A stretch of DNA of 64,000 nt from positions 32,001 to 96,000 of the IMG/VR virus record IMGVR_UViG_3300032282_006300, one strand, 5' to 3'. A program made the position numbers and the translations under genes. The notes under the pieces are model-generated. The model was given only the letters and a program-made list of their open reading frames with translations, searched no databases and was not told the DNA's origin. This document shows positions 1 through 36,481 of this stretch, one piece after another (the stretch's first letter is position 1; each line of letters opens with the position of its first letter). Source of the DNA: a virus.

Positions 1-195
1 GATGAAAGTTCGCAGTTCATACGCACCATCATCACTGCTCAGGGCAAGCCCCAGAACATTGTCGCGCACATACAGGTTGCTGAACGCGCTGGCCAGCATG
101 GCAAACACTTCAGGCGTGTAGGTGCGTTCATTGTTGTCAATGGCAACAGCGAAGTCCACGACTGCCTGAACCTCTGAGTCGCTGTGGCTAATCAC
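1..195 (-). CDS. Hypothetical protein, 5' part only (possibly DUF4192-like)
   Basis: Not in ORF track. GTG at 195 after AAGGAG RBS, overlapping upstream stop; reads MISHSDSEVQAVVDFAVAIDNNERTYTPEVFAMLASAFSNLYVRDNVLG... and runs off the window. Confidence 0.6.
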   Translation of the reverse strand, partial: MISHSDSEVQAVVDFAVAIDNNERTYTPEVFAMLASAFSNLYVRDNVLGLALSSDDGAYELRTFI

Positions 196-362
196 ATTGA
201 CTCCTTAGCAAGTTGGATAGCGCGAACCATACCGCTTGCCCAGCCATCGTTGTATTGGATTTCCTCGTCCTCCAACTCGCCTTCCTCAGCCTCAGCCTTG
301 TCTAGCGCGGTCGTCTGGTCGTGTTCTGCCTGAAGGACTTTGATGAGTTCCTCAATGGTCAT
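192..362 (-). CDS. Small acidic hypothetical protein (56 aa)
   Basis: Not in ORF track. MTIEELIKVLQAEHDQ...QLAKESM; AAGGAAGGAAG RBS, (CAA)7 leader and repeated promoter upstream. Confidence 0.75.
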   Translation of the reverse strand: MTIEELIKVLQAEHDQTTALDKAEAEEGELEDEEIQYNDGWASGMVRAIQLAKESM

Positions 363-378
363 TGTCTTGCTTCCTTCC

Positions 379-399
379 TTGTTGTTGTTGTTGTTGTTG
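379..399 (-). repeat. (CAA)7 tract in 5' leader
   Basis: Seven TTG units on + strand between promoter and RBS. Confidence 0.85.
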
Positions 400-404
400 G
401 TCTT

Positions 405-452
405 ACTATTTCACACACTCTGGTCATTTCGGTGTATTGACCTCGGCGTGTC
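405..452 (-). promoter_or_regulatory. Early-type promoter copy 1: GACACGCCG-N2-GTCAATAC-N23-AATAGT
   Basis: Same architecture in five intergenic regions. Confidence 0.7.
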
Positions 453-473
453 GTGGACTTATTTCGGAAGGTG

Positions 474-507
474 TTGCCCCTGCCCAATGGCGGTCAGGCA
501 GGGGCAA
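474..507 (-). terminator. Hairpin after rIIB
   Basis: TTGCCCCTGCC...GGCAGGGGCAA 11-bp stem just after stop. Confidence 0.6.
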
Positions 508-511
508 GTAC

Positions 512-1348
512 CTATCCCTCCTCGTAGAAGTCAAACGAGTTCCAAGCCTCGTCCTCGTCCCAATCGTTGTCCCAAGCAGAGCCGTCAGACCCAAGCAAGG
601 GCACATAGTCAGGGTTGGCAATCTCAGCCAACACTTCATAGCGACAGGTACGCAACTTCTGGAAGTCGCAGTCGCGCGGAACGGATACAACATCGCGAGG
701 GTTGATTTTCACCTTGACCACGCGAGGTGCGAAGGTGGAGGCGTAGTCCCAAGTGCCAGCGTGGAGTCCGGTAGAACAGCCCTCAAAGGCGTTTGCGTTC
801 ACGCGATTGCGAGGCATTTCCACGATTGACCCAACAGAGTTCGGGACATTACCGTAGACGGTCTGACCATCTACGATTGCTTCCCCAGAGTGAACCGAGG
901 TGAGGTCGTCCCTCAGACCCTTGTAGGCGATAAAGTCACCGTCCTCAGTAATGGTGAAGTTCCGGTCGTTGAGCCAAGTGTAAAGTTGCTCACGACTGTT
1001 GCCATTACGGTTCTGGAGTACCTTCTCGTAGAAGTTCACGAGAGGCACGAAATCGTAGATACCCTGCTTCTGAAAGCGCGAGATTTGCGCCGACAAAGAG
1101 TTGTCCACGAGTTCACCATCAACATACACACGACCATCGCTGATTGAGATACGGTCGCTGACCTTCTCAAAGGCTTGTCGTGCTTGCTCGGCTAGGTCAA
1201 ACAAGCCAAACACTTGAGGGTCGTCCTTGATAACTCCCTCAATAATCTGCGCGAACGCAGGGTGATTGTTGGTGGCTGTGTAGACCTTGCCACCTTGTAG
1301 CACCGTAATGGCTGAGCCATTACCTGTGCTGATGAGTTCGTAAAGCAT
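512..1348 (-). CDS. rIIB: rIIB-like protein
   Basis: ITEDGDFIAYK, MPRNRV, CSTGLHAG, INPRDVVSVP.D...KLRTCRY motifs; adjacent to rIIA. Confidence 0.85.
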   Translation of the reverse strand: MLYELISTGNGSAITVLQGGKVYTATNNHPAFAQIIEGVIKDDPQVFGLFDLAEQARQAFEKVSDRISISDGRVYVDGELVDNSLSAQISRFQKQGIYDFVPLVNFYEKVLQNRNGNSREQLYTWLNDRNFTITEDGDFIAYKGLRDDLTSVHSGEAIVDGQTVYGNVPNSVGSIVEMPRNRVNANAFEGCSTGLHAGTWDYASTFAPRVVKVKINPRDVVSVPRDCDFQKLRTCRYEVLAEIANPDYVPLLGSDGSAWDNDWDEDEAWNSFDFYEEG

Positions 1349-1378
1349 TTCGTTTCCTTCCTTGTAGTTGTTAGTTCT

Positions 1379-1426
1379 AACTTACCATCTGGGACTGACA
1401 AACCGTGTATTGACGACCGGCGTGTC
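1379..1426 (-). promoter_or_regulatory. Early-type promoter copy 2, also matching the PafBC/RecA-NDp pattern TTGTCAGTC-N8-TAAGTT
   Basis: GACACGCCG-N3-GTCAATAC-N22-TAAGTT. Confidence 0.7.
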
Positions 1427-1437
1427 GTGAGAAGTTT

Positions 1438-1482
1438 CGGCAGGGCAGGTCAGGCAGGGAAGCCCTGACCTGCCCCTGACCG
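1438..1482 (-). terminator. Hairpin between rIIA and rIIB
   Basis: GGGCAGGTCAGG...CCTGACCTGCCC stem. Confidence 0.6.
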
Positions 1483-3519
1483 TCACTCGCTGGACTGCTG
1501 ACGCAGGGCATAGGAAGCGTTGAGGTAGATAACAAACTCAGCCCTGACGAGTTCACTATCGGTCACACGACCCAGCCAGATTTCGTTGAGCAGGGGATAA
1601 CTGTGAAGGCTGGTCTTGTAGTCGCTGACCAAAGACTCACCGATAGAGAACGAAAGCGTTCGTGCCAACTTGCGGAACTTGCTCACGACCTCACCGACCT
1701 TCTCATAGCAATCTTTCAGGTCGCGCAGTTCGTCAATGAACTGCTGGTCGTCTACCAATCCCTCTAGCGCGTCAGCGAGTTTGGCTGGCTGACCGAACGA
1801 GTTGTTATTGGAGTTGTAGAGAACAACCTCGCGCGATGTGAACGCTGTCAATGCTTCAGCATAGTCGCGCTTGATTGCTTGTTGGACTGTCAGAGCCAGA
1901 GGGTTCTCTCGCAAGAACTTGTCCTGACGGTTCTTGGCAACTTCCACGACCGCGTAGTTGTCCTCCACAAAATGCTCCACAATACGATTGCGCGAATAGC
2001 CACGGTACTCGTCATTGCTCAGTTCCGTTGGCGAGAAGTAGAGAACCTGCTTGCCAGCAAAGTCAATGCTGTCGGCTGGCATAAGCCCTCCGTTGTTGGT
2101 GACAAGTTCCCAATCCTTAGTGCGTGTTGGGGAGTTCGCGGTGGTCGTTCCAACAGATTGCTTGTGAACTTTGATTGCCTTGATTGTTGAGTAATCAACG
2201 GCAAGAACATTGACCCACTCGCCGACAAAGTTGGTGTCTGCGAATAAGTATTCCGTTGGAGCAGTTTCCAAAGCGAGCGTGTCCACATAAGCGTTCACTC
2301 TCTCAATGGTCGTGGCAGAAGGGTACGACTCACTGCTGTATCCGGTGACAAGAAGTACCTTGCCCAAGTCGCTCGCAATAATAGAACTTTGACGAGAGTT
2401 CTTACGACTACCGTAAGAAGGACTGAGTTGGTGGAGCAGGTAAGAATAACGGAACTGATTGGGCACAGTTTCGCCCCTGAACTCAAACCGCTTGTTGCTG
2501 TCCTCAATGTTGCGCGCAATCGCTCGCCATTGGGTCGCTTCCTCAAAGGCTTCTGCCTTGTTGTTAGCCCTTCCGACATCGGCATAGGCTTTATTGCGTG
2601 CGTTCTTGCGTGCGATGTTCACGAGTTCGGCAAGTCGCTTCTCGGTTCGGTCTGTCAAGTGTAGTTCCTCACGGCTTGGCACGAAGTTGAGTTCGCCCAT
2701 TGGAACTGTGAATACGACAAGGCAATCAAACCAACGGTTGAGTTCGTCTGCGATGTTGCGTGGAGCAGGGTAAGGCACTCCACCCATTACGAAGGTGTGC
2801 GCGCTAATCCTGTCGTCTACCGATTGCGCGCGCCAAGAACTCCAAGCAGGCAGGTTGGTAGCAACAATGGACACATCGTCAGTTCCGACTTCCTTGCCCT
2901 CCACCTTGACATTAGGTTCACCGTCAATCAAGACAGAACCGGACTCCCAGACAGAGAACAGTATCTTAGCCTTGCTTGCGAACTTGTTGTCCGGCTTGGC
3001 TGGGACAGTAATCTTGACTCCGTTGCGTTCGGTCGTGGAGGCGGTGTCCATCACCGACATAGTGCCAGCACCGTCAGTCTTGACTGAGATAAGTACCTCA
3101 GACTTCACACCGTCCTTCACAGCCGTCATAATGAACTGTGAGGCATAGGTCAGGGCAGACTTTGAGCCAAGACCGAGCATACCTGTTTGCTCATTGGACT
3201 CGCGCTTAGTGCTTGCTCCATAGCGTGAGTAGATAGCAGTAATGTCGTCAAGCGACAGCCCTAAGCCAAAGTCCTGAATAGTCAGGAACGGAGAGAGCGT
3301 GTTGGGGAGATTGACCTCAATGGGGGCAGGGTTGCCAGAGGCGATGTGAGAGTCGCGCGCGTTGCTGGAATACTCACGCAAGACTGCCATTTCGGGGTCG
3401 GAGTAGAGGTTGGTCAGAACGCTCATAATGTGAGCGAGCGAGTTCTGGTCAATGCTCATCTCAATGGACTCGCCCTCAAAGGTTGAGGACTTACGAATAC
3501 CTGTCTTTGCTGGTATCAC
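1483..3519 (-). CDS. rIIA: rIIA-like protein with N-terminal GHKL/HSP90-type ATPase domain
   Basis: LYSDPEMAVLREYSSNARDSH, IQDFGLGLS, YGASTK, GLGSKS, PSREEL; start moved to GTG 3519 behind GAAGGGAAG. Confidence 0.85.
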   Translation of the reverse strand: MIPAKTGIRKSSTFEGESIEMSIDQNSLAHIMSVLTNLYSDPEMAVLREYSSNARDSHIASGNPAPIEVNLPNTLSPFLTIQDFGLGLSLDDITAIYSRYGASTKRESNEQTGMLGLGSKSALTYASQFIMTAVKDGVKSEVLISVKTDGAGTMSVMDTASTTERNGVKITVPAKPDNKFASKAKILFSVWESGSVLIDGEPNVKVEGKEVGTDDVSIVATNLPAWSSWRAQSVDDRISAHTFVMGGVPYPAPRNIADELNRWFDCLVVFTVPMGELNFVPSREELHLTDRTEKRLAELVNIARKNARNKAYADVGRANNKAEAFEEATQWRAIARNIEDSNKRFEFRGETVPNQFRYSYLLHQLSPSYGSRKNSRQSSIIASDLGKVLLVTGYSSESYPSATTIERVNAYVDTLALETAPTEYLFADTNFVGEWVNVLAVDYSTIKAIKVHKQSVGTTTANSPTRTKDWELVTNNGGLMPADSIDFAGKQVLYFSPTELSNDEYRGYSRNRIVEHFVEDNYAVVEVAKNRQDKFLRENPLALTVQQAIKRDYAEALTAFTSREVVLYNSNNNSFGQPAKLADALEGLVDDQQFIDELRDLKDCYEKVGEVVSKFRKLARTLSFSIGESLVSDYKTSLHSYPLLNEIWLGRVTDSELVRAEFVIYLNASYALRQQSSE

Positions 3520-3571
3520 TTTGGAACTTCCCTTCGGTTGTTGTTGGTGACGGTCATCACCTTGTGCCCTA

Positions 3572-3620
3572 ATCATTACACGACAAACGCCGATACTCGT
3601 GGATTGAGTACCGGCGTGTC
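3572..3620 (-). promoter_or_regulatory. Early-type promoter copy 3
   Basis: GACACGCCG-N3-CTCAATCC-N23-AATGAT. Confidence 0.6.
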
Positions 3621-3630
3621 GCGGATTATT

Positions 3631-3993
3631 TCAGAACGAGTAGGTATTGACCTTCTCAACCGATTTCATACGAGCCTTCAGCACCTTCTCGTACTCCGAA
3701 CGCTCGTGATACACATAGCCACAGGAGTTGCCTGTGCCAACGAAGTAGAAGATTGTGGTGAAGCAGTTGTAAGGGTCACAGGCGTTGTCCATCTTCCACC
3801 TCAGACCCCCCATGTCGTCTACCCAAACATCGTCAATCGGGATACCGCAGGAGAAGTGATACACCTTCGCCAGATAGTCCTTCTTGACCCACCCTTTCGG
3901 GTTGAGCAGTCGCGCAGTCTTGGAGGCTTCCGTCAGGCTGGTGTTCTTTCCCCAGCGACCGTTTCCACCAATGACGACATAGAAATCAGACAT
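3631..3993 (-). CDS. Hypothetical protein
   Basis: 120-aa ORF with GGGGAG RBS and repeated promoter upstream. Confidence 0.7.
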   Translation of the reverse strand: MSDFYVVIGGNGRWGKNTSLTEASKTARLLNPKGWVKKDYLAKVYHFSCGIPIDDVWVDDMGGLRWKMDNACDPYNCFTTIFYFVGTGNSCGYVYHERSEYEKVLKARMKSVEKVNTYSF

Positions 3994-4041
3994 ACAATCA
4001 TCTCCCCTGTTGAGTTATGCCAGCACTTGCTGACAAGAACT

Positions 4042-4092
4042 AACTTAGCACCTCAGACCCCCGAAACCGTGTATTGACCGCTTCGGCGTGTC
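4042..4092 (-). promoter_or_regulatory. Early-type promoter copy 4
   Basis: GACACGCCG-N5-GTCAATAC-N23-TAAGTT with TGn extension. Confidence 0.7.
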
Positions 4093-4318
4093 GCCGGAAT
4101 AGAGATTTCCAACTATTTCCAAACTCTCGGCGTGTCGCTACAAGGGCTGTATGTAAATGCTCTGTAATCGCCTGAAACGATGTGGTTGGTATGGTTGGGT
4201 GGATACGGGGGGTAAGTGGCTCAAATCGCCTCCTACGGCTTCTAAAGACCATTGTCCCACATTGTTCCACTATGTCCGATTTGCTCTGCTCTGTTGAGTT
4301 ATGGCTTTCGCTACCTCA

Positions 4319-4367
4319 AGCATAGCATCACTTGACCCAAAATCTTGGTATTGACTCTCGGCGTGTC
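4319..4367 (-). promoter_or_regulatory. Early-type promoter copy 5
   Basis: GACACGCCG-N3-GTCAATAC-N23-TATGCT with TGn extension. Confidence 0.7.
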
Positions 4368-4654
4368 GTGAAAAGATTTATTTATTTTCGGCGTGTCGGT
4401 ACTTGATTTCGCGCCTCAAAAGAGTAAAGTTGAGTTTGGTGCCCAAAAACATTTATTCGTACAGGTGTTCTAATCCAACGACACTCTGTTGCCTCGGTTC
4501 CCTAACTCACCAGCCTAATGCCAAATGGGGCACTTGTCAAAGACCGACACGCGGTTTGGTAGGTGTTTATCATCACACTCAAATCGGCGTGTCTTGCCAA
4601 GATTTCAGGTATGGTTCGGCTATGGTGGTCGTGCCCACGAGCATAACCTACCTT

Positions 4655-4682
4655 ACTTGACATAATGTGTATTATCGGCGTG
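4655..4682 (-). other. dif-like XerC/XerD recombination site
   Basis: CACGCCGATAA-TACACA-TTATGTCAAGT: 11-6-11 layout with actinobacterial-type XerD arm. Confidence 0.8.
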
Positions 4683-4824
4683 AGCCACTACGAGTAGGAG
4701 GTCTAGGCACAAATGCCCTTCAGAAGCCCTGTAAGGCTCGCTGAGGGACTTACCCTCCTTCTGTAGGCAATCACCCTAGCCCTTACCTGTTAGGCGCTCA
4801 TGAAGCCATACAGAGCCTCCAAAT

Positions 4825-4951
4825 CTATCCACAGACCTCACGCCTGTATCCACAGGTTATCCACAGGTCGCAAGTTATCCACAGGTTATCCACAAGGTTG
4901 TCCACATTGTGGATAAAATCTGTGGATAACTTGTCCACAGCCTGTGGATAG
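4825..4951. promoter_or_regulatory. Cluster of 10 DnaA boxes
   Basis: TT(A/G)TCCACA perfect at 4857, 4875, 4886, 4898, 4931 (+) and 4908, 4921 (-); one-mismatch at 4825, 4846, 4943. Confidence 0.85.
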
Positions 4952-5056
4952 TGCCTGTCCGTTATGTCCGATTTGCCAGACACGGGGGGTCTCAGCGCCA
5001 GCCAGACCCGCGGGGAGCCATACCATACCCCTACCCCCGCCGCGCGCGTGGACCAT

Positions 5057-5275
5057 AGTCCGGTCCAGTCCGGTCCGTGAGCATGAGCATGACCGGTGTC
5101 AGTGAGCATGACCGAGTCCGGTGTCAGGGCTATAGTCCGATTTCAGTCCGGCGGTTCCCAAAAATAGTCCGAACTTAGTCCGAAGATCAGTCCGAAGCAT
5201 TTTTAAATAGTCCGGACCCATACATGTAAAAAGTCCTCGGCACATCTAGTCCGAAAATAGTCCGGCCATAGTCCG
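5057..5275 (+). repeat. Twelve AGTCCG direct repeats, mostly helically phased
   Basis: Starts 5057, 5067, 5115, 5134, 5145, 5166, 5177, 5189, 5209, 5248, 5259, 5270. Confidence 0.9.
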
Positions 5276-5370
5276 ACACAAGTACGCTCGCGTGACGCTC
5301 GCAACTTAATTCAACTTGTTCTCGCCGCCGACTCTTCTTGCACAGCGAACGTGTCCGTAGGCACAAAAAG

Positions 5371-5420
5371 ATGGTAGAAAGTGGTAGAAAGTGGTGCATG
5401 GTGGGGCTTTGTGGGACTTT
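5371..5420 (+). promoter_or_regulatory. MraZ-box-like array: five (A/G)TGG units at 10-bp period
   Basis: ATGGTAGAAA GTGGTAGAAA GTGGTGCATG GTGGGGCTTT GTGGGACTTT. Confidence 0.6.
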
Positions 5421-5575
5421 GCTATTAGATATCTGTTAGTGAACTATTGTCCCTATTCGCACGCTTGATTGTAAACGGTACGGGTAATCTTCCAAACACT
5501 ATCGTCCACATGAACGCTACTATGATGTCCATGAGGATATGATCAGGGTCAGATATGTTTTCTAGGAATTGTTCT

Positions 5576-6235
5576 TTACTGATCATAGGACTGATCGTAG
5601 GTGGGATCGTCTTTGATCTCCCGATAGATTCTTTGGTAATCCATCTTTTCTTTGTAATGTTTTTCACACTGGGGTTGTGTTTGACCACTTGTTGTTACAT
5701 AGTCTGCGAATCTTTTCTCAGGACATTGTGAGCATTTTGTTTGGCTCAATAGTTCACTGGCGACTTTTACGGCGATCCGCGGGGTCTTCCCCTGATATTT
5801 CCCTTCAAGGATCCCGTGTTCGCGCACATGCTCGCGGGCGCGGTTGATCGTATCCTCGTTGGGGTCTTCATGTTCTTCGGGGTCTTGATCAGTCCGTGAC
5901 CAGTCCGCGTGATTAGTCTTGTCCGGGTCGATGCCCTTGTAGGGCAAGGGGTGCTTTCCAGCAGAGTCATAAGCATGCGTGTCGTCGTGCGCGAAGTAGT
6001 GCGATGGGACCTCCATCTTGTCGCCATCGCTGTCTGTCAAGACCCACCCCATCGCCCCGAAACGAAGAGAAGGCTTCTCGCGGATCAGTGCGTGAGCGTA
6101 TTCAAGGCAATTGCCGTGCTGCCAGTCGCGCCAGCCGTGGAGGTTGTATCCTCGCTCTTGGTAGTCCTTCTCCCATTCCGCAGTTTCTAGGCTGTCTTCA
6201 TTGTTTTCAGCGACTTTGTACCATAGGTTAGCCAT
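5576..6235 (-). CDS. NLWYK-leader protein with papain/transglutaminase-like core and C-terminal Zn finger
   Basis: MANLWYKVA; GNCLEYAHAL...PSHYFAH...AYDSAG; CSQC..CEKH after RIAVKVA linker. Confidence 0.75.
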   Translation of the reverse strand: MANLWYKVAENNEDSLETAEWEKDYQERGYNLHGWRDWQHGNCLEYAHALIREKPSLRFGAMGWVLTDSDGDKMEVPSHYFAHDDTHAYDSAGKHPLPYKGIDPDKTNHADWSRTDQDPEEHEDPNEDTINRAREHVREHGILEGKYQGKTPRIAVKVASELLSQTKCSQCPEKRFADYVTTSGQTQPQCEKHYKEKMDYQRIYREIKDDPTYDQSYDQ

Positions 6236-6277
6236 TATTGTTCTCCGTTATATTGAAAATACACAAGTAAAATTGCT

Positions 6278-7000
6278 TTAAAATTTCCATCCGACGTCTT
6301 GTCCAACGTAAGGGCTTGGACTTAAATGATGATTAATCCGGTTTTTAATACAACTAGAGGCATCTGGATCTAAACAACCATTTTTTTCTGCAAGCGTTCC
6401 ATCAAAAAGACCATTGTAAAGATTTCCACAACGAAGGCATTCATGTTCCCAACCATAATGTGTTTGTACGGGAATATGAAGCGAACTTTTCCAACCCTGT
6501 GATATTGTGCTTTTTAATTCAAAATGCGATCCTGTTTCGGGATCCTTTTCGGATCCGTTGGACCTTAAAGGAGATTGTTGCGCTTCTGCTCCATGTAACC
6601 ATGAACCTAAACCTTGTGTATGTAGATACATGGCTGGTCCAGAATTGTCGTGTTTTAAAATTCCACAATTTATGCCAACTAGGCCACCGTCACCATAAAT
6701 ACCATGTTTTCCGTATATAATCCTATTGTCGTTATGATTATATACGGAACCTTCTTTAAGAATATCTGATACATGTTTTTCGCAATGGTGACAATAATCT
6801 GTTCTGTCATCCATCAATGTGCTTAAATTTTCGCCTTTTAATGTTTCGAAACCTTTATGTATATGGCTCAAATATAAAGAAGGGTTATAAATATGGCGCA
6901 AAGCGGGCGCATTGTGAAACCTACCAATTGCTGGGTTATTATTAAGTTCAGAAACCCAACTTGGTGTATCTGAAGCGACTTTGTACCATAAATTACTCAT
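6278..7000 (-). CDS. NLWYK-leader Cys/His-rich protein
   Basis: Start moved to ATG 7000 (MSNLWYKVA, TAATG overlap); CHHC and CLRC motifs. Confidence 0.75.
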   Translation of the reverse strand: MSNLWYKVASDTPSWVSELNNNPAIGRFHNAPALRHIYNPSLYLSHIHKGFETLKGENLSTLMDDRTDYCHHCEKHVSDILKEGSVYNHNDNRIIYGKHGIYGDGGLVGINCGILKHDNSGPAMYLHTQGLGSWLHGAEAQQSPLRSNGSEKDPETGSHFELKSTISQGWKSSLHIPVQTHYGWEHECLRCGNLYNGLFDGTLAEKNGCLDPDASSCIKNRINHHLSPSPYVGQDVGWKF

Positions 7001-21719: not shown

Positions 21720-23462
21720 TTAACCCATATCGTTTTCAATTTGTGGATCGAAAGAACTAAGACGATGGGTACGTTGCCATCCCCATACAGGGTTGTAATA
21801 ACCATTTGGAGTATTTTTATGCACATGGTTCATAATATGTGTATGCGCGTGAACACCAAAAAAATCAGTAAGTTCTCGATGATCAGACGGTGATACGTTG
21901 TATTTCTTGTACATAGCAAGTTGGGGTTCGGTTGGTTCGTCGTTATAAGTTTCACTGATCGCGTGATCTTCAGAACAATCGTCCGCACCGGCCGTTTTAT
22001 TAAAATTTAGGCGACTGCTAGATTGGCTAGAAACTTTGAGCGACTTATAATCGCTGTGCAAGCGCTTGCTTGCGGCAACAGCCTCGTCACGGGTTTGGTG
22101 TGAGGAAAGAACATTGCCTGATTTCTTGTCAATGATTACCCACATGCCATTGCGCTTACGCACATTGCCAGCCGCGGTACGGCGTGAGGCAGTCTTGCGG
22201 GAGGCAGTGGTGCCCATTGGGTAAGAACGATCCGGGTGCGTGTGATCAGCATGGCCATCGTTGTGCATCTGATCGTGCAAATTTGCAATAGTCTCTTCGT
22301 GAGCACTGCCACGGTCTTCATCATCCTTAATAGACAAATCAGGCCCAGGAAGAAATTCAGTCCAAAGATTATGATCGTTCTCAATGTGCTGAACCATAGG
22401 GTGGCTTTCCACGTCGTCAGGATCAACCCCCCAGCCAAGGATGTTTGCGAGATACGGGCCTTCCTTGGGGGCATCATCCGAACCTGCAACCAGGAGAGGG
22501 TTGTCTTCTTCATCGCCTGGGTGCCAGTGGTCAATACTGCCATCGGCGTGCTCATTGTCATGTTTTTCTTTAAGCAATTGCCCGACATCAGTGCGTCCAC
22601 CATTACGCGCTTTGTATGCTGCGTCGTCATGAACTTGGCTCAAAATATCACCGGCACCATTGCCGTGATCTTCAACAAGGTGATCCATAGCCTCGTTAAT
22701 GTGGTGATCTTCAGCAGCGGTCTTGCGGGAGGACTGTGCACGCTTGTGATCACTCATACCACGTCCATCGCAACCTGGACAAGTGTTATCACCATGATTA
22801 ATCTCGCCATCTGTGGTACCTGTGCCATTACAAGAAATACAAGTCATATGGCCAGTCTTGCGAGCGGCAGTGGTGCTGTTGTCTTCTGATTGGCATTGAG
22901 GACAAACAAGATGTAGTTTTCCATCAAACGTGGTGTAATCTGACCAATTTTCTTTTTTGCCAGAGAACCCGCACTTATTACACTTAGCAGAAGACCCGTC
23001 ATCACCAGCGGTACGGCGTGAGGAAGTGGTGTTGCCTCTCTGCCTTTTGTCATATTCAGCAAAGGGGTCGGTGTCTTTGTATTCAGGCAAATTATTTTTA
23101 TTTGCGTGTTCTCCGAAAAACTCACAAGCCAAACATACATTTGGGTCTTCAGCATCGCATCCACAAGGGCAACTGCAAATACCGTTGTTTGCCAACTTGA
23201 CGTTACCGGCCTCAACCAGCATTTCCCAACGGTTACGCAAAGAAGCAGTAACTTCATCAAGAGGAACACCTGTGCTATCTGACAACTCCTGAATGCTCGC
23301 GGTGGCCAGCATTAGGCGACCTTCGAACTCATCGTTGGTCTGCGCCAGAGCAAGGTATTGCATGACACCAGTTGATGCCACACGGAGGTTAGCCTGAGCA
23401 ACTAGACGCGCTTCTGAATCGTAATCGCGTGAAGCCTCATCCCAAACGGAGTAGCCATCCAT
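21720..23462 (-). CDS. Modular virion-region protein with repeated SR[KR]TA linkers
   Basis: Cys and His cassettes separated by SSRRTAG, AARKTGH, SSRKTAA, ASRKTASRRTAA, FNKTAG. Confidence 0.75.
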   Translation of the reverse strand: MDGYSVWDEASRDYDSEARLVAQANLRVASTGVMQYLALAQTNDEFEGRLMLATASIQELSDSTGVPLDEVTASLRNRWEMLVEAGNVKLANNGICSCPCGCDAEDPNVCLACEFFGEHANKNNLPEYKDTDPFAEYDKRQRGNTTSSRRTAGDDGSSAKCNKCGFSGKKENWSDYTTFDGKLHLVCPQCQSEDNSTTAARKTGHMTCISCNGTGTTDGEINHGDNTCPGCDGRGMSDHKRAQSSRKTAAEDHHINEAMDHLVEDHGNGAGDILSQVHDDAAYKARNGGRTDVGQLLKEKHDNEHADGSIDHWHPGDEEDNPLLVAGSDDAPKEGPYLANILGWGVDPDDVESHPMVQHIENDHNLWTEFLPGPDLSIKDDEDRGSAHEETIANLHDQMHNDGHADHTHPDRSYPMGTTASRKTASRRTAAGNVRKRNGMWVIIDKKSGNVLSSHQTRDEAVAASKRLHSDYKSLKVSSQSSSRLNFNKTAGADDCSEDHAISETYNDEPTEPQLAMYKKYNVSPSDHRELTDFFGVHAHTHIMNHVHKNTPNGYYNPVWGWQRTHRLSSFDPQIENDMG

Positions 23463-23480
23463 AGTTATATTTCCTCTTCC

Positions 23481-26141
23481 TTAGTTTTCTTTGGTTACAA
23501 GAGAGATATTATCTTCAATTGCTTGACGGAAGTTGGCCAGACGGCGAGCACTCGTCAATTGTTGTGTTGCTGGCATTGAGACGTTGATCTCGGCATTAAT
23601 CACACCTTGACCAAAGGGCTCAACACCATTGTAGGGTGCAGGACCACCGGGACGAGCGGGATCAGTTCCTCCAGCGTTAGGACCATCGCGGCCCGGACCG
23701 TTAATGGGGGTTTCACCAACGGGGGAAGGTGTAGCGTCTGGAGCCATAGTGTCAAGGTCAGTTGACGTGGCACTCTCAACGCGAAGGTAAGCACCCTTCA
23801 TAATTCCACCTTGATCAGAAATGACCTTCAAGGAGAAATCTTTATGAAGTGCAATGCGCTGGCTAAACTCTGGATACTTGTTGGCTTGCTTGCGATGCTT
23901 GGCAACCCAAGCCTCTTGAGAACCAATGTTGTCAGAGATACCTGCGTACAGGCCAGCCTCAAACTCGGCAGAACCGGTGCGAACCAATGGCTTGCTTGCG
24001 TCCCATTTGCTTGCAAACTTGTAAGCCTTACGGAATTCAGGGTCCTGATTTGCATCTTCTGGAGTGAAAAGGCTAGAGGTGCGTTGCGCTTGTGCTTCGT
24101 CCAATTGCCTTTCTAGATCCTTGTTGTTTTCTGGTGCGTGTTTGGGAGATGGTGAATTTCCTCGCCAAATCTGGTCACTTTCATACCTTTGACTGTAAGG
24201 CAAAGTTTCATCATCAATATATTTGCCCGGACGATTAAGGTGCAATTTACTTACGTCGGTTGGAAGATCCGCGGCTGGACCTTTACGACGAAATGGGTTG
24301 CGACCAGCGGTACCACTCAAAAATGCCTGACCATTATCGCCACCGGCTGAGTAAGGCATGTCCTTGGGGTTACGCTCATCGCGTGCTTCGCCAATACCCT
24401 TTTGGTAACCTGCAACATAACCGGAGGAGAAAGCAAGACCACTTGATGCATCAGAGTAGGTAGGTGCATCACCATTGGCGCCATCAGCCATACCGGCCGC
24501 AAAACCAGCGGTGTACGAGCCACCCTGCTGAGGTTGTGGGGTAGTAGCAGGGGAATTTGCTACATCAGGTTGTGCAACTGCGTGAGGTGCATCGGAGTTA
24601 CCGTACATGTCAGCAGTTTTGCGAGAAGCCGTTGGCGGTGCTATGCCGTCGAGAAACGGTCCCCTGCAATCATCGCAACTCCACCTAGTTTGATTAGGAT
24701 TCCCATAAGAGATATAGACAGACGGTTTTGCCCCAGCGGCTCCACAATTGTCGCAAGTTGCTTCAGCAGCAGTCTTGCGGGAGGCGTTCTTGGGCGCGTT
24801 GACTTCAGCGGGAACCATACCCATGCCACCGCAATTACCGCAGGAGTTCTTGCCATCTTTAGTCTTTCCAGTGGCATCACAAGAACGGCAAGAAAAATCA
24901 GCGGGAGCAGCAATACGGCGAGAGCCGGTAAAACCAAATTCGTGTTGTCTACCCGGCAAATATCCGCGAAGGTGTTCGTTTATGTGGGCTTTGGCGTCCG
25001 CAACGCTTTCATGGTCGTGCTGATTTTGATCGTCGTGGGTATTTTCATTTCCCATAATTGTGAAAATACGATTGGGATCATCTCCACTTTGATAAATGTG
25101 ACCGAATGCAAAATTGCCATCTCTGTCTTTAGTCTCTGCGCTGTGTAAAAGTGGATCATCTCCACCATTTGGATCAATTCCACCCTCGTCATACCACTGA
25201 ATTTTAGCAGCAGTCTTGGTTGCGGCAACAGCCTTATCAATTGCTGCTGGTGCCGCCTGAGTAAAATCCTGATCATCAGCCTCTGGGTCCACAACCGGAC
25301 CGCCAAGCATCCAAGGGTAAGCAACTTCACCCGGAAGTGGGGTGGGCTTGGGCATGTTGTTGGGGTCAATGGTTTGAGCAATCTGATCCAAGGTGCTTGC
25401 GGCTTCACGCTGACGAAACTCATCCAAGTTGTAGGAGTGAGAAATGGCAACTGAAGTTACATTAGCAAAGTTAGCGGTTCCGCCACCGGGAACTGGGGGC
25501 CATTCTCCTTGGCCTTGTCCTCCACCAAGTTGCTCAATTTCAGCAAGCAATGGGTTGTTGTAAGTTCCCTCTTGCGCGACAGCCTGATCATTAATCGGGT
25601 GAACTGGGTCTTCAAAAGTGGGGAAGGTAGCCGCAGGGTATTCAGTAGCCTTGGGCATGTTATTGGGATCAATGAGTTGGTCAACCTGATCCAAGCCGGA
25701 TGCGGCTTCGCGGTTCAAGAATGCAACGTATTGCAAGAACGACTGCTCGGCGTCAGGTGCATAAACACCGTAAGTGCTGGCGGTACGACGAGCAATACCA
25801 CGGGCCTGCTCAACAAACTCTGGAACGTCATTTTTGACTTCGTCAGAGATGCGGTTGAACCACAATGATGCTTCAGCCATCACTGCTTGGTGATAGTTAT
25901 TGTCCTGAGTGTCGTCATCCATGCTCAACCAGTCGGTGGAGGCAGTGTGAAACTCGTGCACTCGCACGGGCGACAATGTCTGCTCTACAATCGCGCTGGT
26001 GAAGTCTAGACTTCGGTCTTCAGCGATGTTGCTGGCCTGACGAGCGTCAAGTGCTTCAAGTTCTGAAACCAAAGCGATCTGCTCAGCAAGAGATGATGCT
26101 TTTTGCAAGGATGCCATGATTTCGGCACGAGAGTTGTTCAC
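23481..26141 (-). CDS. Modular virion-region protein with REAAS duplication and SRKTA linkers
   Basis: REAAS.LDQ...IDPNNMPK twice; ATKTAA, GSRRIAA, ASRKTAA, ASRKTAD. Confidence 0.75.
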   Translation of the reverse strand: MNNSRAEIMASLQKASSLAEQIALVSELEALDARQASNIAEDRSLDFTSAIVEQTLSPVRVHEFHTASTDWLSMDDDTQDNNYHQAVMAEASLWFNRISDEVKNDVPEFVEQARGIARRTASTYGVYAPDAEQSFLQYVAFLNREAASGLDQVDQLIDPNNMPKATEYPAATFPTFEDPVHPINDQAVAQEGTYNNPLLAEIEQLGGGQGQGEWPPVPGGGTANFANVTSVAISHSYNLDEFRQREAASTLDQIAQTIDPNNMPKPTPLPGEVAYPWMLGGPVVDPEADDQDFTQAAPAAIDKAVAATKTAAKIQWYDEGGIDPNGGDDPLLHSAETKDRDGNFAFGHIYQSGDDPNRIFTIMGNENTHDDQNQHDHESVADAKAHINEHLRGYLPGRQHEFGFTGSRRIAAPADFSCRSCDATGKTKDGKNSCGNCGGMGMVPAEVNAPKNASRKTAAEATCDNCGAAGAKPSVYISYGNPNQTRWSCDDCRGPFLDGIAPPTASRKTADMYGNSDAPHAVAQPDVANSPATTPQPQQGGSYTAGFAAGMADGANGDAPTYSDASSGLAFSSGYVAGYQKGIGEARDERNPKDMPYSAGGDNGQAFLSGTAGRNPFRRKGPAADLPTDVSKLHLNRPGKYIDDETLPYSQRYESDQIWRGNSPSPKHAPENNKDLERQLDEAQAQRTSSLFTPEDANQDPEFRKAYKFASKWDASKPLVRTGSAEFEAGLYAGISDNIGSQEAWVAKHRKQANKYPEFSQRIALHKDFSLKVISDQGGIMKGAYLRVESATSTDLDTMAPDATPSPVGETPINGPGRDGPNAGGTDPARPGGPAPYNGVEPFGQGVINAEINVSMPATQQLTSARRLANFRQAIEDNISLVTKEN

Positions 26142-27643
26142 TGGTTCTCCTCTAGATCAAGCACTTGACGTGCTCTTTGGGCGATGGCTGAAGCCGTACG
26201 CCGATTGTTTTTGATTGCTGCTTTGTTAACTGATGGTGCGTCTGAAAATTTCAAACCACCCGCACCAGGAACTTTTTCTACGAAACCGCAAGTAGAACAT
26301 TTATAATCGTTTGCGCCTTTTTGCAATGTCATCATTGTACCATCACGAGGGCATTTTAACTCTTCGGCAGAAGGTTTGTTGGCGAGTGGATCATGTTGAC
26401 GGCCAAAAGGAATTACATTGCTGTTTCCACCCGGAATGCCTGTGCTAGGTAATTCAATTTGACTCATGTTGTAAGGATTACGTACAACTGTTCGATTTCG
26501 TTTTACGGGAGAAGAAGTTCCTGAATCTGTGTCCACGTAGGCTTCACCGCTTTGAGTTTCAAAAGAACGTGTACGGCGAATTTTTTCATTACCTTGGGTA
26601 ATTGGGTGGAGAATGTAATCTTGTGGTGTTAAATTTTGAACTTGAGTGGGGATCAAAGTCGCATTCTTGTTTGAGGAAGTGGCTTTGTTATTCGGAGTTT
26701 TACGAGCGCCGCGAAAATTGCGCATCATTGTATGATAGACATCGTCCGCAGCGTATCTTTTTTGCGAAGTCTCGTGCTCTTGGAACGGGCTTACGCGATG
26801 GTACTGTGTGCCTTTTGGACCTTCAACGGTAAAAACACCAGCCTTGTAACCGTAGGCTTTATTTCCAAAATCATTATCTGGAACGTGTTCGTGATAACTG
26901 ATATTGTGTTCAACGCCATCGGGACCAATAAATTGCATGGATTCCCCGTGTTGAAGCCCATGAATCTGTGTCCACGTAGGCAGTTTTGCCCACCAGGGAT
27001 TTTCATTTTCAGCAGTTTTGCGAGAAGCCTCGGTGTGCTCACCGCTTTGAACGTGGAGGTCTGGATCGTACCAATCGTCGTGACCATAGTGTTCGAAATA
27101 ATCTTTTCTGTTTGCTGAATACCACGGGGCGATAACTTCTTTTCCGCACGCAGAGCAACGTTCTCCCATTGGACCGGTAGAATCCCAAGATGCAATGGAA
27201 CCACATGATCCTTCGCATTCTTTAGTCTCTGGGCCGTGGCAATCGGTACAATAGATTTCTCCATCATGGGCGTAGCCTTTTAAGAATTTGTCAGACGCAG
27301 TTTTGCGAGAGCCGGTAAAACCCGGATCTTTTTCGCGGTCGTAGGGGCGGTCGGGAGTGCCTACTGCCGGGTCGTTTTTCGTGCAATTGTCGCACTTAGG
27401 AAAAGAACTATCTTCAGGCACGAGCATATTAGTCCCACAGTTAATACAACTACCGCGGACAGCAATTTTAGAATTAGCGAAAAAAATGTCATAAGCCGAC
27501 TTCTTTGCCATTTGCCGTCTAACCTTCTTCTGGTCGGTGGATGGATTACGCCTTACTTGGCTGTCAGAACCCCTCATAGGTTCTTGCTTCGGAGCGTCCT
27601 CATTACGAGAAACACCCTTTGGCTTTGCAGCCTCATACTGCAT
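26138..27643 (-). CDS. Modular Zn-finger protein with SRKTA linkers
   Basis: Start moved to MQYEAAK behind GGAGG; GSRKTAS, ASRKTAE, NRRTAS. Confidence 0.75.
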   Translation of the reverse strand: MQYEAAKPKGVSRNEDAPKQEPMRGSDSQVRRNPSTDQKKVRRQMAKKSAYDIFFANSKIAVRGSCINCGTNMLVPEDSSFPKCDNCTKNDPAVGTPDRPYDREKDPGFTGSRKTASDKFLKGYAHDGEIYCTDCHGPETKECEGSCGSIASWDSTGPMGERCSACGKEVIAPWYSANRKDYFEHYGHDDWYDPDLHVQSGEHTEASRKTAENENPWWAKLPTWTQIHGLQHGESMQFIGPDGVEHNISYHEHVPDNDFGNKAYGYKAGVFTVEGPKGTQYHRVSPFQEHETSQKRYAADDVYHTMMRNFRGARKTPNNKATSSNKNATLIPTQVQNLTPQDYILHPITQGNEKIRRTRSFETQSGEAYVDTDSGTSSPVKRNRTVVRNPYNMSQIELPSTGIPGGNSNVIPFGRQHDPLANKPSAEELKCPRDGTMMTLQKGANDYKCSTCGFVEKVPGAGGLKFSDAPSVNKAAIKNNRRTASAIAQRARQVLDLEENQ

Positions 27644-27667
27644 ATTAGGCCTCCACAATCAATCTCC

Positions 27668-27703
27668 TACCCTTTCAGGGGGTTTGTGCTAGATAGTGAC
27701 AGG
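27668..27703 (-). promoter_or_regulatory. Putative late promoter CCTGT-N27-GGTA
   Basis: Recurring motif. Confidence 0.6.
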
Positions 27704-27723
27704 GGCGACAACAAAGAGTTTTT

Positions 27724-28218: not shown

Positions 28219-28516
28219 CTTCCTCCATTGCTCGTTTCAGCAAATTTTGTAATTCGGGATCGTTGTCGTATTCATCCTGAGCGTGAACATAACCATGTTC
28301 TACATCAATGTCACGGTGGATGTCACGACGGAGCCGGGGCAAAATGTAACCCTTGAAAAAAATCTTGTAGCCAAGCCAAAGGAGCACAAAGTCAAAGACA
28401 ATGGTAAAAGTTAATTCGGCCAAAATGTGTGCAGGGTCAAAAGAAACACTGACATAGTCTTGCCAAATTGACATGTTGCTTTCGGTTTCTTGTACTAGCA
28501 TCGCTGTATTAATCAT
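28202..28516 (-). CDS. Membrane protein
   Basis: One TM; TTGACT-N17-TAAGTT 6 nt before ATG (leaderless-type). Confidence 0.65.
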   Translation of the reverse strand: MINTAMLVQETESNMSIWQDYVSVSFDPAHILAELTFTIVFDFVLLWLGYKIFFKGYILPRLRRDIHRDIDVEHGYVHAQDEYDNDPELQNLLKRAMEEDDSLF

Positions 28517-28553
28517 GTTTAAAACTTAATGCAAAATTTCTACAAAGTCAAGC

Positions 28554-28985: not shown

Positions 28986-28994
28986 AATTCCTCT

Positions 28995-34070: not shown

Positions 34071-34095
34071 CTTATAATAGTTTCTGGGCAAAACG

Positions 34096-36472: not shown

Positions 36473-36481
36473 TTTGACCCC

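What the first reader, a model, noticed from the sequence alone, without database searches (positions are those of the whole stretch)
4040..5420. 1.4-kb non-coding island of host chromosome and cell-cycle protein sites
Seen in order: five GACACGCCG boxes (4084-4593), a dif-like 28-mer, ten DnaA boxes, twelve AGTCCG repeats, five 10-bp-spaced GTGG units. Known: actinobacterial WhiA recognises GACAC, XerCD acts at dif, DnaA binds TT(A/G)TCCACA, MraZ binds 10-bp-spaced GTGG/TGGG repeats. On a chromosome oriC and dif lie at opposite poles; here they are about 140 bp apart. Inference: either a DNA decoy that titrates host replication and division regulators, or a compact host-driven origin plus resolution module.
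Basis: partly seen in the sequence, partly recalled or inferred. Interest (0 to 1): 0.85.

Follow-up and report, generated by a model that had tools for sequence, protein, structure and literature searches.

The report
Phage island docking host DnaA, XerCD
A gene-free stretch of an uncultured freshwater phage of actinobacteria carries textbook landing sites for two host chromosome proteins, the replication starter DnaA and the XerC/XerD chromosome-untangling enzyme, which the phage most likely borrows to copy and tidy up its own DNA circles.

Summary
Window 3994-5575 is a gene-free gap in a 123.8-kb virus record whose genes almost all lie on the minus strand. It holds five CGGCGTGTC boxes, a 28-mer at 4655-4682, ten DnaA boxes in 127 bp, twelve co-oriented AGTCCG hexamers, and four GTGG plus one ATGG at an exact 10-bp period.

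The 28-mer is a real actinobacterial dif-type site: 27 of 28 bases match the Frankia alni dif printed in Kono 2011. A WhiB gene and the portal and rIIA kin also point to an actinobacterial host. The five boxes are not island-specific. They belong to a 22-copy early-promoter cassette spread over 10 kb.

The phage has DnaB-like, DnaC-like and primase genes, but no recombinase, ParA or ParB.

Best reading (0.5): a cis-acting docking region where host DnaA starts replication and host XerCD cyclises or resolves phage circles. The decoy reading is unsupported.

The dif-plus-DnaA pairing recurs in unrelated viral contigs (3 of 16 other actinobacterial-type elements; 5 of 120 proteobacterial-type contigs). 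It is absent from five portal relatives.

Earlier notes of this scan describe similar DnaA-plus-dif islands on other phage DNA. My literature searches found no paper describing such a pairing in a tailed phage.

The parts
3994..5575 (.). Gene-free island between the 120-aa gene and the 219-aa gene
   Evidence: ORF list. No PHROG hit for 8 of 8 mechanical ORFs inside it. Covered at 95-99% identity by contigs of four other runs.
4084..4593 (-). Five GACACGCCG boxes (4084, 4128, 4359, 4389, 4585), the upstream elements of early-promoter cassettes read on the minus strand. Two pairs are spaced 44 and 30 bp.
   Evidence: There are 22 copies in the genome, 21 co-oriented, all at genome 26853-36585.
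4042..4047 (-). -10-like TAAGTT of the cassette that drives the 120-aa gene (start codon at 3993)
   Evidence: Alignment of the 22 cassettes anchored on the box and the sequence itself.
4512..4540 (-). TTGACA-N17-TAGGCT promoter-like site on the minus strand, with no ORF behind it
   Evidence: Read. The consensus scan did not list it, so it is weak evidence.
4655..4682 (-). Actinobacterial dif-type XerC/XerD site: CACGCCGATAA / TACACA / TTATGTCAAGT
   Evidence: 27 of 28 bases match the F. alni dif printed in PMC3025954. About 3e-10 such matches are expected in the genome. Both arms recur on actinobacterial plasmids. Only the outermost bases vary between runs.
4825..4951 (.). Array of ten DnaA boxes: six on the + strand, then mixed orientation, mostly 10-13 bp apart
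   Evidence: The three variable positions seen in other runs (4907, 4918, 4930) all fall between boxes.
5016..5125 (.). Short tandem repeats that vary in copy number between populations
   Evidence: Repeats D11 and D12. Insertions at 5025, 5067 and 5077 in other contigs.
5057..5275 (+). Twelve co-oriented AGTCCG hexamers, many in pairs 11 bp apart, with an unknown binding protein. A second array of nine lies outside the window at genome 30721-30935.
5371..5414 (+). ATGG followed by four GTGG at an exact 10-bp period (MraZ-repeat-like pattern)
   Evidence: The published B. subtilis pattern is.
5418..5457 (.). Second least stable 40-bp stretch of the island (70% A+T; the least stable is 5549-5588), a weak candidate unwinding element
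   Evidence: Nearest-neighbour stability scan. It is about 470 bp from the DnaA array, so this is not a strong case.
3631..3993 (-). 120-aa early gene of unknown function, the first gene downstream of the island
   Evidence: no family hit.
1483..3576 (-). rIIA-like gene
   Evidence: phrog_612, E 3e-87.
512..1348 (-). rIIB-like gene
   Evidence: phrog_609, E 6e-60.
5576..6235 (-). 219-aa gene upstream of the island, replaced or absent in the related populations
   Evidence: No contig cover at 5728-6115 in 4 of 4 runs (in X2, X3 and X7 the hole starts at 5631), and joints that bridge the stretch with other letters.

Best explanation
The island is a cis-acting control region at the head of the phage's early-gene block, where host DNA proteins dock for the phage's own DNA metabolism.

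Shown by sequence:
- a canonical actinobacterial XerC/XerD site (dif type);
- 142 bp away on its XerC-arm side, an oriC-grade array of ten DnaA boxes;
- two iteron-like arrays beside these (AGTCCG with pairs 11 bp apart, GTGG at 10 bp);
- on the other side, the first five copies of the early promoter cassette.

Inferred mechanism:
1. After entry, host XerCD recombines dif copies. This would cyclise a terminally redundant genome or reduce multimers and catenanes to monomer circles. P1 does both with Cre/lox, but here the recombinase is borrowed from the host.
2. Host DnaA bound to the box array opens or marks the origin and recruits the phage's own DnaB-like helicase through its DnaC-like loader.
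3. The AGTCCG and GTGG arrays bind further proteins that I could not identify. The GTGG array fits the MraZ repeat pattern.
For: 1. The dif-type site is real.
- 27 of 28 bases match the published F. alni seed. About 3e-10 such matches are expected by chance.
- The same arms sit in intergenic DNA of large actinobacterial plasmids. One search found 37 plasmid records, most of them Actinomycetota. I read four sites, which are 23-24 of 28 identical.
- The Nonomuraea record holds a site with an identical XerD arm.

2. The host is actinobacterial.
- The genome has a WhiB gene; among the 14 control genomes only Corynebacterium has the family.
- The portal is about 42% identical to Mycobacterium and Rhodococcus phage portals, and rIIA about 31% to Streptomyces phage rIIA.

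3. The DnaA array is dense and phased: ten boxes in 127 bp, and every perfect box of the window lies in it.

4. Gene content fits a borrowed-host-factor scheme.
- The phage has DnaB_C, IstB/AAA+ loader and DnaG-type primase genes.
- None of the proteins I scanned matched a replication-initiator family.
- It has no tyrosine or serine recombinase.

5. The island is kept in nature.
- It is covered at 95-99% identity in four runs from four studies.
- Variants touch only the two outermost dif bases and only the spacers between DnaA boxes.

6. The pairing recurs.
- 4 of 17 viral loci with the actinobacterial arms (3 of 16 distinct elements) have two or more DnaA boxes within 300 nt. The background is 0.54% of positions, giving P about 8e-5.
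- 5 of 120 viral loci with gamma-proteobacterial arms do so (P about 5e-4).
- 7 of 119 DnaA-selected loci hold a dif-like site within 300 nt.
- One example (L355) lies on a 155-kb viral contig, directly upstream of a promoter and a gene.

7. A relative with 45% rIIA identity (L205) keeps four DnaA boxes in an intergenic gap of its early region.
Against: - No A+T-rich unwinding element adjoins the DnaA array; the nearest weak candidate is about 470 bp away.
- Cumulative GC skew shows no turn at the island.
- Five of 5 portal relatives (60-63% identity, 140-160 kb) have no dif-type site, no DnaA doublet and only 0-2 boxes genome-wide.
- Two of 2 Streptomyces phages have no cluster.
- 0 of 148 rIIA-relative loci have a dif-type site. 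Only L205 has a DnaA cluster of three or more boxes: 0 of 70 viral loci and 1 of 78 metagenome loci, leaving out L202 and L203, the near-identical copies. So kin replicate without such a module.
- The gene content looks lytic, with UvsX-like recombinase, polymerase and rII genes, and a lytic phage does not obviously need dimer resolution.
- There is no ParA or ParB for a plasmid state.
- Most dif-bearing viral contigs lack DnaA boxes (115 of 120; 13 of 17).
- Four actinobacterial plasmid sites and the Nonomuraea site have no DnaA box in the 1.5-2 kb held on either side (0 of 5).
- The exact 28-mer, and the version that allows the F. alni base, gave 0 hits in the genome collection. I therefore could not confirm the published seed in a genome or name a host.
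Confidence: 0.5

Rival explanations
1. Entry-pause or membrane-anchor signal like the proposed T5 injection-stop region. The island would mark the edge of the DNA that enters first, and membrane-bound DnaA (perhaps also XerCD) would hold the DNA there until early proteins are made.
For: In T5-like phages a large untranslated repeat region at the inner end of the first-step-transfer DNA carries eight ordered DnaA boxes, which are not thought to act in replication (Davison preprint, passages read). Here a 14.2-kb stretch (genome 22986-37185) has 0 GATC against 55 expected and is depleted of many other 4-bp palindromes. Its right edge falls inside the island. That stretch holds all 22 early promoter cassettes.
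Against: The T5 model is itself an untested proposal. The physical ends of this genome are unknown, because the 83-bp end repeat of the record may be an assembly overlap. The model does not explain a complete dif-type site. This phage is not T5 kin.
Confidence: 0.15
2. Passive lysogeny or carrier state. The phage would use host XerCD to integrate reversibly at the host dif (IMEX style), or persist as a DnaA-driven episome, without an integrase of its own.
For: Gokushoviruses with a dif motif integrate through host XerC and XerD and have no integrase (PMC7062461, passages read). This phage has no tyrosine or serine recombinase. Some DnaA-plus-dif contigs resemble gokushovirus genomes.
Against: A 124-kb insert flanked by two good dif sites should be excised readily. 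No ParA or ParB was found. No host-phage joint was seen at 4655-4682 in contigs of four runs, though contigs drop rare forms. The exact site is in none of the species genomes scanned.
Confidence: 0.15
3. Decoy. Hundreds of replicating copies would soak up DnaA, XerCD and MraZ and so arrest host replication and division.
For: Several distinct host-factor motifs are packed into DNA without genes. No direct test was possible.
Against: One dif per genome is a poor sink. The phage has replication genes that would use a DnaA-marked origin. No parS, and only chance-level LexA and CRP matches, were found, so the list of host sites is shorter than proposed.
Confidence: 0.07
4. Neutral mosaic. The sites would be leftovers of recombination with plasmids or other phages and would have no present function.
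For: The module is absent from relatives. The surrounding block is richer in G+C than the rest of the genome (52.5% against about 43%).
Against: The sites are intact, phased and unchanged in four other populations, while neighbouring repeats and the adjacent gene vary. The pairing recurs in unrelated contigs.
Confidence: 0.05

Closest known systems
Chromosomal dif / XerCD dimer-resolution site of Actinomycetota (predicted; Kono et al. 2011, PMC3025954)
   Same: Same 11-6-11 layout. Both arms are identical to the printed F. alni site, 27 of 28 bases in all.
   Different: It sits on a phage, 142 bp from a DnaA-box array. No FtsK-orienting polarity could be seen. No experimentally confirmed actinobacterial dif was available to that paper.
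Plasmid-borne Xer sites (cer and psi type in enterobacteria, recalled; dif-like sites on actinobacterial plasmids)
   Same: A single host-type Xer core on an extrachromosomal replicon that has no recombinase of its own. As recalled for cer and psi, extra protein-binding DNA lies on the XerC side.
   Different: The flanking DNA holds DnaA boxes, not ArgR, PepA or ArcA sites. The four actinobacterial plasmid sites read here have no DnaA box within 2 kb.
Phage P1 lox-Cre (recalled, not read here)
   Same: One site that can both cyclise terminally redundant infecting DNA and resolve dimers of a phage circle.
   Different: P1 encodes its own recombinase and is a plasmid prophage with partition genes. 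This phage has neither.
DnaA-box arrays of the T5 injection-stop region (Davison 2020 preprint, 10.1101/866236)
   Same: An ordered set of 8-10 DnaA boxes in a long untranslated, repeat-rich region at the edge of the earliest-expressed block of a phage of about 120 kb.
   Different: T5 boxes come in pairs 3 bp apart inside inverted repeats and have no dif beside them. The phages are unrelated.
Dif-motif-bearing phages that exploit host XerCD (CTX phi; enterobacterial gokushoviruses, PMC7062461)
   Same: A host-type dif motif in non-coding phage DNA and no phage integrase.
   Different: Those are small single-stranded DNA phages that integrate. This is a 124-kb tailed phage with a full replication gene set, and its XerD arm is canonical rather than degenerate.
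Iteron origins with a distant second iteron cluster (P1 incC/incA, P4 ori/crr; recalled)
   Same: Two arrays of a short co-oriented repeat, 12 and 9 copies about 6.3 kb apart, with DnaA boxes beside one of them.
   Different: No Rep-type initiator was identified. The repeat is only 6-7 bp long, and binding is untested.

Membership tests
XerCD/dif-type recombination site | Two 11-bp arms around a 6-bp centre, with inner ATAA/TTAT symmetry and arms matching the host phylum's consensus | tested here: met
   Both arms (22 of 22 bases) and 27 of 28 bases overall match the printed F. alni site. The arms are shared with plasmid sites.
XerCD/dif-type recombination site | Bound and recombined by host XerC and XerD | not testable with these tools
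   Needs binding and recombination assays. The host is unknown.
Chromosomal dif | Single site at the replication terminus, with polar FtsK-guiding motifs converging on it | tested here: not met
   The site lies on a phage. Recalled and published guide motifs are too rare to show any polarity.
IMEX (integrating element that exploits Xer) | Found integrated beside a host dif, flanked by two dif-like sites | tested here: inconclusive
   No joint at the site in contigs of 4 runs, and 0 genome hits for the exact site. Contigs cannot exclude rare junctions.
DnaA-dependent origin (oriC type) | Cluster of consensus DnaA boxes with helical phasing | tested here: met
   Ten boxes in 127 bp, mostly 10-13 bp apart.
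DnaA-dependent origin (oriC type) | Adjacent A+T-rich unwinding element | tested here: not met
   The array's flanks are not A+T-rich. The nearest low-stability patch is at 5418-5457.
DnaA-dependent origin (oriC type) | Initiation of replication mapped to the site | not testable with these tools
   GC skew is uninformative. Only contigs, not raw reads, could be laid.
Iteron-type plasmid or phage origin | Iterons plus a cognate Rep initiator gene nearby | tested here: inconclusive
   Two AGTCCG arrays are present. The neighbouring proteins that I scanned give no informative Pfam or PHROG match; the 56-aa ORF at genome 32192-32362 between the arrays was not scanned.
T5-type injection-stop region | Ordered DnaA boxes in an untranslated repeat region at the inner end of the first-entering terminal repeat | tested here: inconclusive
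   The boxes and repeat-rich untranslated DNA are present, and the palindrome-poor block ends here. The genome ends are unknown.
MraZ operator | Three or more GTGG-type repeats at a 10-bp period | tested here: met
   Four GTGG at 5381-5414, matching the B. subtilis pattern.
MraZ operator | Lies in the mraZ/dcw promoter and is bound by MraZ of the host phylum | not testable with these tools
   I found no actinobacterial MraZ motif and could not reach an actinobacterial mraZ promoter.
WhiA/WhiB-activated promoter | GACAC motif upstream of the -35 element of a sigma-A promoter | tested here: met
   In the cassette consensus, GACAC starts 19 nt upstream of TTGACT. The published geometry is, and the phage has a WhiB gene.
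WhiA/WhiB-activated promoter | Dependence on WhiA | not testable with these tools
   The conserved box is 9-10 nt long, longer than the 5-nt WhiA motif, so another protein may read it.
datA-like DnaA titration locus | A box cluster that lowers free or active DnaA without acting as an origin | not testable with these tools
   This needs an in vivo test.

The most novel reading that the evidence does not exclude
DnaA-box arrays beside phage dif sites may form a new composite recombination site, in which a DnaA filament serves as the accessory, architectural partner. It would let XerCD act on phage DNA away from the septum and FtsK, as ArgR/PepA do at cer and ArcA/PepA at psi.

The supporting pattern is the geometry. 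In 9 of the 12 loci compared (this island included), boxes lie on the XerC-arm side, mostly 50-270 nt from the core. That is 8 loci in the table plus L292, where boxes lie 4 and 15 nt from the arm. Here the boxes lie 151-269 nt away. The two copies of one element (L283, L288) have them only on the XerD side, and L294 has one on each side.

If true, tailed phages of at least two phyla, and small single-stranded DNA phages, would share an undescribed way of driving a host recombinase with the host replication initiator.
Probability: 0.1. Interest if true: 0.9.

Novelty: new variant of a known kind. Interest (0 to 1): 0.66.

Why it matters
Host Xer sites are known on plasmids and on small integrating phages. 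DnaA boxes are known at P1 oriR (recalled) and in the T5 entry-stop region.

A large tailed phage with a complete host-type dif but no recombinase, set next to an oriC-grade DnaA array, did not turn up in print in my searches.

If the sites work, they show how a big phage of the hard-to-culture freshwater actinobacteria borrows two core host chromosome machines. The exact dif arms would also give a sequence-based clue to the host.

The recurrence of the pairing across phyla makes one question directly testable: do DnaA and XerCD cooperate on phage DNA?

Tried and rejected
- Close DNA relatives: megablast of 3900-5600 found nothing in the phage or plasmid collections.
- RNA genes: the window has no tRNA and no Rfam family.
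- Promoters and terminators: the consensus scan of 3500-6300 gave counts no higher than shuffles.
- Exact dif in genomes: the 28-mer, and the version with N at the one base that differs from F. alni, gave 0 hits in the species genome collection.
- Other host sites: recalled consensus motifs for parS, the actinobacterial LexA box and the CRP box gave no parS and only chance-level matches. One 2-mismatch LexA-like site lies at 4457, and there are two such sites in the genome.
- FtsK guide motifs were too rare for any polarity test.
- AGTCCG units as Xer half-sites (a lead from note e1-5742347): by eye the units lack the inner ATAA and share only about 5 of 11 bases with the XerC arm, so I rejected the idea. 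No call tested it.
- L292 as a relative: only its ribonucleotide reductase is similar (64-70% amino-acid identity), so I do not count it as kin.
- Contig depth is higher over the island than to its right in two runs. Depth of contigs cannot rank regions, so I draw nothing from it. It is only a reason to map raw reads.
- No RNA holder was listed among the sequencing runs, which says nothing about expression.
- No contig covers 5728-6115 in the four runs.
- Supplements of papers were closed. The dif tables in the additional files of Kono 2011 could bear on which hosts share this site.
Full report
**What the DNA is**

The window is bases 32001-96000 of a 123,830-bp virus record. The record's ends repeat 83 bp exactly, which may be no more than an assembly overlap.

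Almost all long ORFs lie on the minus strand. The window encodes:
- rIIA and rIIB;
- a portal, a weak large-terminase match and a DNA polymerase;
- a weak SSB-family match, a primase, ribonucleotide reductase, a DnaB-like helicase, a DnaC-like loader and a UvsX-like recombinase.

Pfam confirms DnaB_C, IstB/AAA+ and DnaG-type domains.

Three lines point to a phage of Actinomycetota:
- The portal is about 42% identical to those of Mycobacterium and Rhodococcus phages.
- rIIA is about 31% identical to that of Streptomyces phages of the Stanwilliamsviridae.
- The genome holds a WhiB-family gene at genome 2893-3105. Among 14 control genomes, only Corynebacterium has this family.

Near-identical DNA is held by 20 sequencing runs from 12 studies. 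One of them may be the source of this DNA, and most are labelled freshwater or lake water.

**The observation**

The gene-free stretch runs from 3994 to 5575. It lies between a 120-aa gene (3631-3993) and a 219-aa gene (5576-6235), both on the minus strand. Eight of 8 mechanical ORFs inside it have no PHROG hit.

Only one count needs correcting. The 10-bp-phased units are four GTGG plus one ATGG.

**The five boxes are promoter parts**

CGGCGTGTC occurs 22 times in the genome. Twenty-one copies lie on the + strand, and all 22 lie between genome 26853 and 36585.

Read on the minus strand and aligned on the box, the copies share a long cassette:
- an A-rich stretch;
- GACACGCCG;
- about 10 nt, then a TTGACT-like -35;
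- about 16 nt, then a TAAGTT or TATGTT -10;
- a conserved CAA-rich leader;
- a Shine-Dalgarno sequence;
- the start codon of a small gene.

The box at 4084 belongs to the promoter of the 120-aa gene. The other four have no ORF behind them, and two pairs (4128/4084 and 4389/4359) repeat a double-box layout also seen at genome 29106/29075 and 30302/30256.

So the left third of the island is simply the start of the early promoter array.

The published WhiA-WhiB structure places WhiA on a GACAC motif upstream of the -35, with variable spacing (PMC10243135, passages read). The cassette geometry is compatible with that, and the phage has a WhiB gene. But the conserved box is twice as long as the WhiA motif, and nothing here shows WhiA binding.

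**The dif-type site**

I first read the 28-mer on the wrong strand and thought it weak.

On that strand it reads CACGCCGATAA-TACACA-TTATGTCAAGT. Kono et al. 2011 print the F. alni dif that they used as the actinobacterial seed (PMC3025954, passages read). The two differ at one base of the central six.

About 3e-10 matches of 27 or more of 28 bases are expected in a genome of this size.

A blastn search with the site against plasmids found 37 records, most of them large plasmids of Arthrobacter, Gordonia, Rhodococcus, Mycobacterium and other Actinomycetota, mostly in unannotated DNA. The four sites I read share 23-24 of 28 bases, including both arm cores. An 11.85-Mb Nonomuraea record filed as a plasmid has a site with the identical XerD arm at 6.49 Mb.

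The same query found no comparable site in 50,697 phage records.

Against this, two scans of the species genome collection gave nothing. One used the exact 28-mer. The other allowed the F. alni base. I therefore could not confirm the printed seed in a genome or name a host.

The phage has no tyrosine recombinase and no serine recombinase. Any recombination at this site would have to be done by host enzymes.

**The DnaA array and the other repeats**

Ten boxes lie in 127 bp: six on the + strand, then alternating orientation, mostly one helical turn apart. All five perfect boxes of the 64-kb window are in this array.

The array has no A+T-rich neighbour. The least stable patches of the island are at 5418-5457 and 5549-5588. 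GC skew shows nothing at this position.

The AGTCCG hexamers are all co-oriented and often come in pairs 11 bp apart. A second array of nine copies lies 6.3 kb downstream in the direction of transcription, at genome 30721-30935, again in non-coding DNA.

Four GTGG at an exact 10-bp period match the MraZ-binding repeat pattern described for B. subtilis and other Firmicutes (preprint 10.1101/2022.02.09.479790, passages read). A triple of this pattern is expected 0.01 times in the window. I found no actinobacterial MraZ motif in the literature.

Other host sites proposed in a parallel note (parS, LexA, CRP) are absent or at chance level.

**Conservation**

A metagenome contig (L202) is 98.2% identical over window 1-5605 and keeps every element.

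Contigs from four further runs, from four studies, cover 3400-5600 at 95-99% identity. Across these:
- The dif-type site varies only at its two outermost bases (4655 and 4682).
- The three variable positions in the DnaA array all lie between boxes.
- The short tandem repeats at 5016-5125 gain and lose units.
- The 219-aa gene next door is replaced.

This is weak evidence for constraint, because divergence is low.

Farther out, the module disappears:
- No cluster of three or more boxes lies within 10 kb of rIIA in 70 of 70 viral loci.
- Among 78 further metagenome loci, only L205 (45% rIIA identity) has one. It has four boxes in a 390-nt gap about 7 kb upstream of rIIA, and no dif.
- Two Streptomyces phages have no cluster genome-wide.
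- Five portal relatives (60-63% identity, 140-160 kb, four of them complete) have no dif-type site, no box doublet and 0-2 boxes in all.

The module is therefore specific to this lineage.

**The pairing recurs elsewhere**

*Selected on actinobacterial dif arms.* Scanning 2.9 million viral contigs for the actinobacterial arms with any centre gave 17 loci.
- Four of them (three distinct elements) have two or more DnaA boxes within 300 nt. The background is 0.54% of positions in 2.2 Mb of unrelated phage loci, giving P about 8e-5.
- In one element, sampled twice as L283 and L288, seven boxes end 14 nt from the site.
- L292 has two boxes 4 nt from the XerC arm, then a long A-run.
- L294 has one box on each side, directly upstream of small terminase, HNH, large terminase and portal genes.

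*Selected on DnaA boxes.* Of 119 viral contigs chosen only for a DnaA doublet, 7 hold a dif-like site within 300 nt, mostly with proteobacterial arms. Parts of these resemble gokushovirus genomes.

*Selected on gamma-proteobacterial arms.* Of 120 contigs, 5 have two or more boxes nearby, giving P about 5e-4. One of them (L355) comes from a 155-kb viral contig. It has four boxes 38 nt from an E. coli-type site, a second pair of dif-like sites, and then a promoter and a gene.

*Geometry.* In 9 of the 12 loci compared, this island included, boxes lie on the XerC side, mostly 50-270 nt from the core. Eight of these are in the table. The ninth is L292, whose true site that script missed.

*Counter-evidence.* Most dif-bearing contigs have no boxes (13 of 17 and 115 of 120). 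Four actinobacterial plasmid sites and the Nonomuraea site have none in the 1.5-2 kb held on either side. The link is real but holds for a minority, and it seems to belong to phages rather than plasmids.

Earlier notes of this scan describe similar islands on other phage DNA (e1-5320133, e1-5730951). One of them gave me the lead to the T5 preprint.

**Context: a palindrome-poor early block**

Genome 22986-37185 has no GATC (55 expected) and no ATAT. It has 2 TCGA, 6 ACGT and 7 GGCC, each against 55-67 expected. AGCT is absent from the whole genome.

The right edge of this block falls inside the AGTCCG array. The block is also richer in G+C (52.5%) and holds all 22 promoter cassettes. This looks like DNA that must survive unprotected early in infection.

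**Reading**

I take the island to be a docking region used for the phage's own DNA metabolism. Host XerCD would cyclise or resolve phage circles, and host DnaA would mark an origin for the phage's helicase and loader.

The sites themselves are shown by sequence. Their use is inferred from three things: the phage's gene content, the role I assume for the Xer-type sites on plasmids, and the recalled example of P1 lox-Cre.

The main weaknesses are the missing unwinding element, the lytic-looking gene set, and the absence of the module from relatives.

A T5-like entry-pause role fits the position at the edge of the palindrome-poor block (Davison preprint, passages read). It rests on an untested model and leaves dif unexplained.

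Passive integration in the manner of gokushoviruses (PMC7062461, passages read) cannot be excluded.

The decoy idea has no support beyond the co-location of the sites.

**Literature**

Three searches found no paper describing a tailed phage that carries a host-type dif next to a DnaA array:
- 'DnaA boxes' + 'phage' + 'dif site' (13 papers, listing seen);
- 'XerD' + 'dif' + 'phage genome' + 'circularization' (listing seen, 16 hold the terms, 15 listed);
- 'phage T5' + 'injection stop' + 'DnaA'.

PMC8026635 (passages read) says that circular plasmid prophages usually carry their own XerCD-like recombinases, which this phage lacks. PMC3094311 and PMC3219685 (passages read) added nothing specific. 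Supplements were closed.

Noticed in passing
window 1-5185, running left beyond the window to genome 22986: A 14.2-kb block has 0 GATC (55 expected), 0 ATAT, 2 TCGA, 6 ACGT and 7 GGCC. AGCT is absent from the whole 123.8-kb genome. This suggests restriction avoidance in the earliest-exposed DNA.
   Followed up: partly
window 444-4593 and genome 26853-30530: Twenty-two copies of one promoter-plus-leader cassette, each ahead of a small early gene. The 5' leader is highly conserved and CAA-rich.
   Followed up: partly
genome 29263-29140 and 30450-30330 (left of the window): Two cassettes are followed by similar ORF-free sequence instead of a gene. These may be small RNAs.
   Followed up: no
window 5631-6206: No contig of four other runs covers most of the 219-aa gene next to the island (5728-6115 in all four). 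X2 and X7 bridge it with other letters, so it is a variable cassette.
   Followed up: no
genome 2893-3105 (left of the window): WhiB-family gene on the phage.
   Followed up: no
window 29711-34036: 1441-aa protein with matches to a ParB C-terminal domain and an acetyltransferase, like the polyvalent proteins of mobile elements.
   Followed up: no
L023, L044, L079, L085, L086: In viral contigs whose DnaA arrays resemble gokushovirus genomes (L044 was the one compared), the arrays flank a proteobacterial-type dif motif: about 90-134 nt away on the XerC side in all five, and 41-86 nt away on the XerD side in L023, L044 and L086. The gokushovirus paper I read does not mention DnaA.
   Followed up: partly
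H101, H104, H105 (Shigella and Klebsiella T7-like phages): DnaA-box arrays lie in unannotated DNA within about 200 bp of the genome ends of cultured phages of 40-46 kb.
   Followed up: no
L355:180-400: A 155-kb viral contig has four DnaA boxes, an E. coli-type dif and a second pair of dif-like sites, all just upstream of a promoter and a gene.
   Followed up: partly
genome 29098-29108 (left of the window): The box at genome 29106, read on the minus strand, runs on into a full 11-of-11 copy of the XerC arm of the phage's dif-type site, but no XerD arm follows. All 22 boxes share 7 bases with that arm.
   Followed up: no
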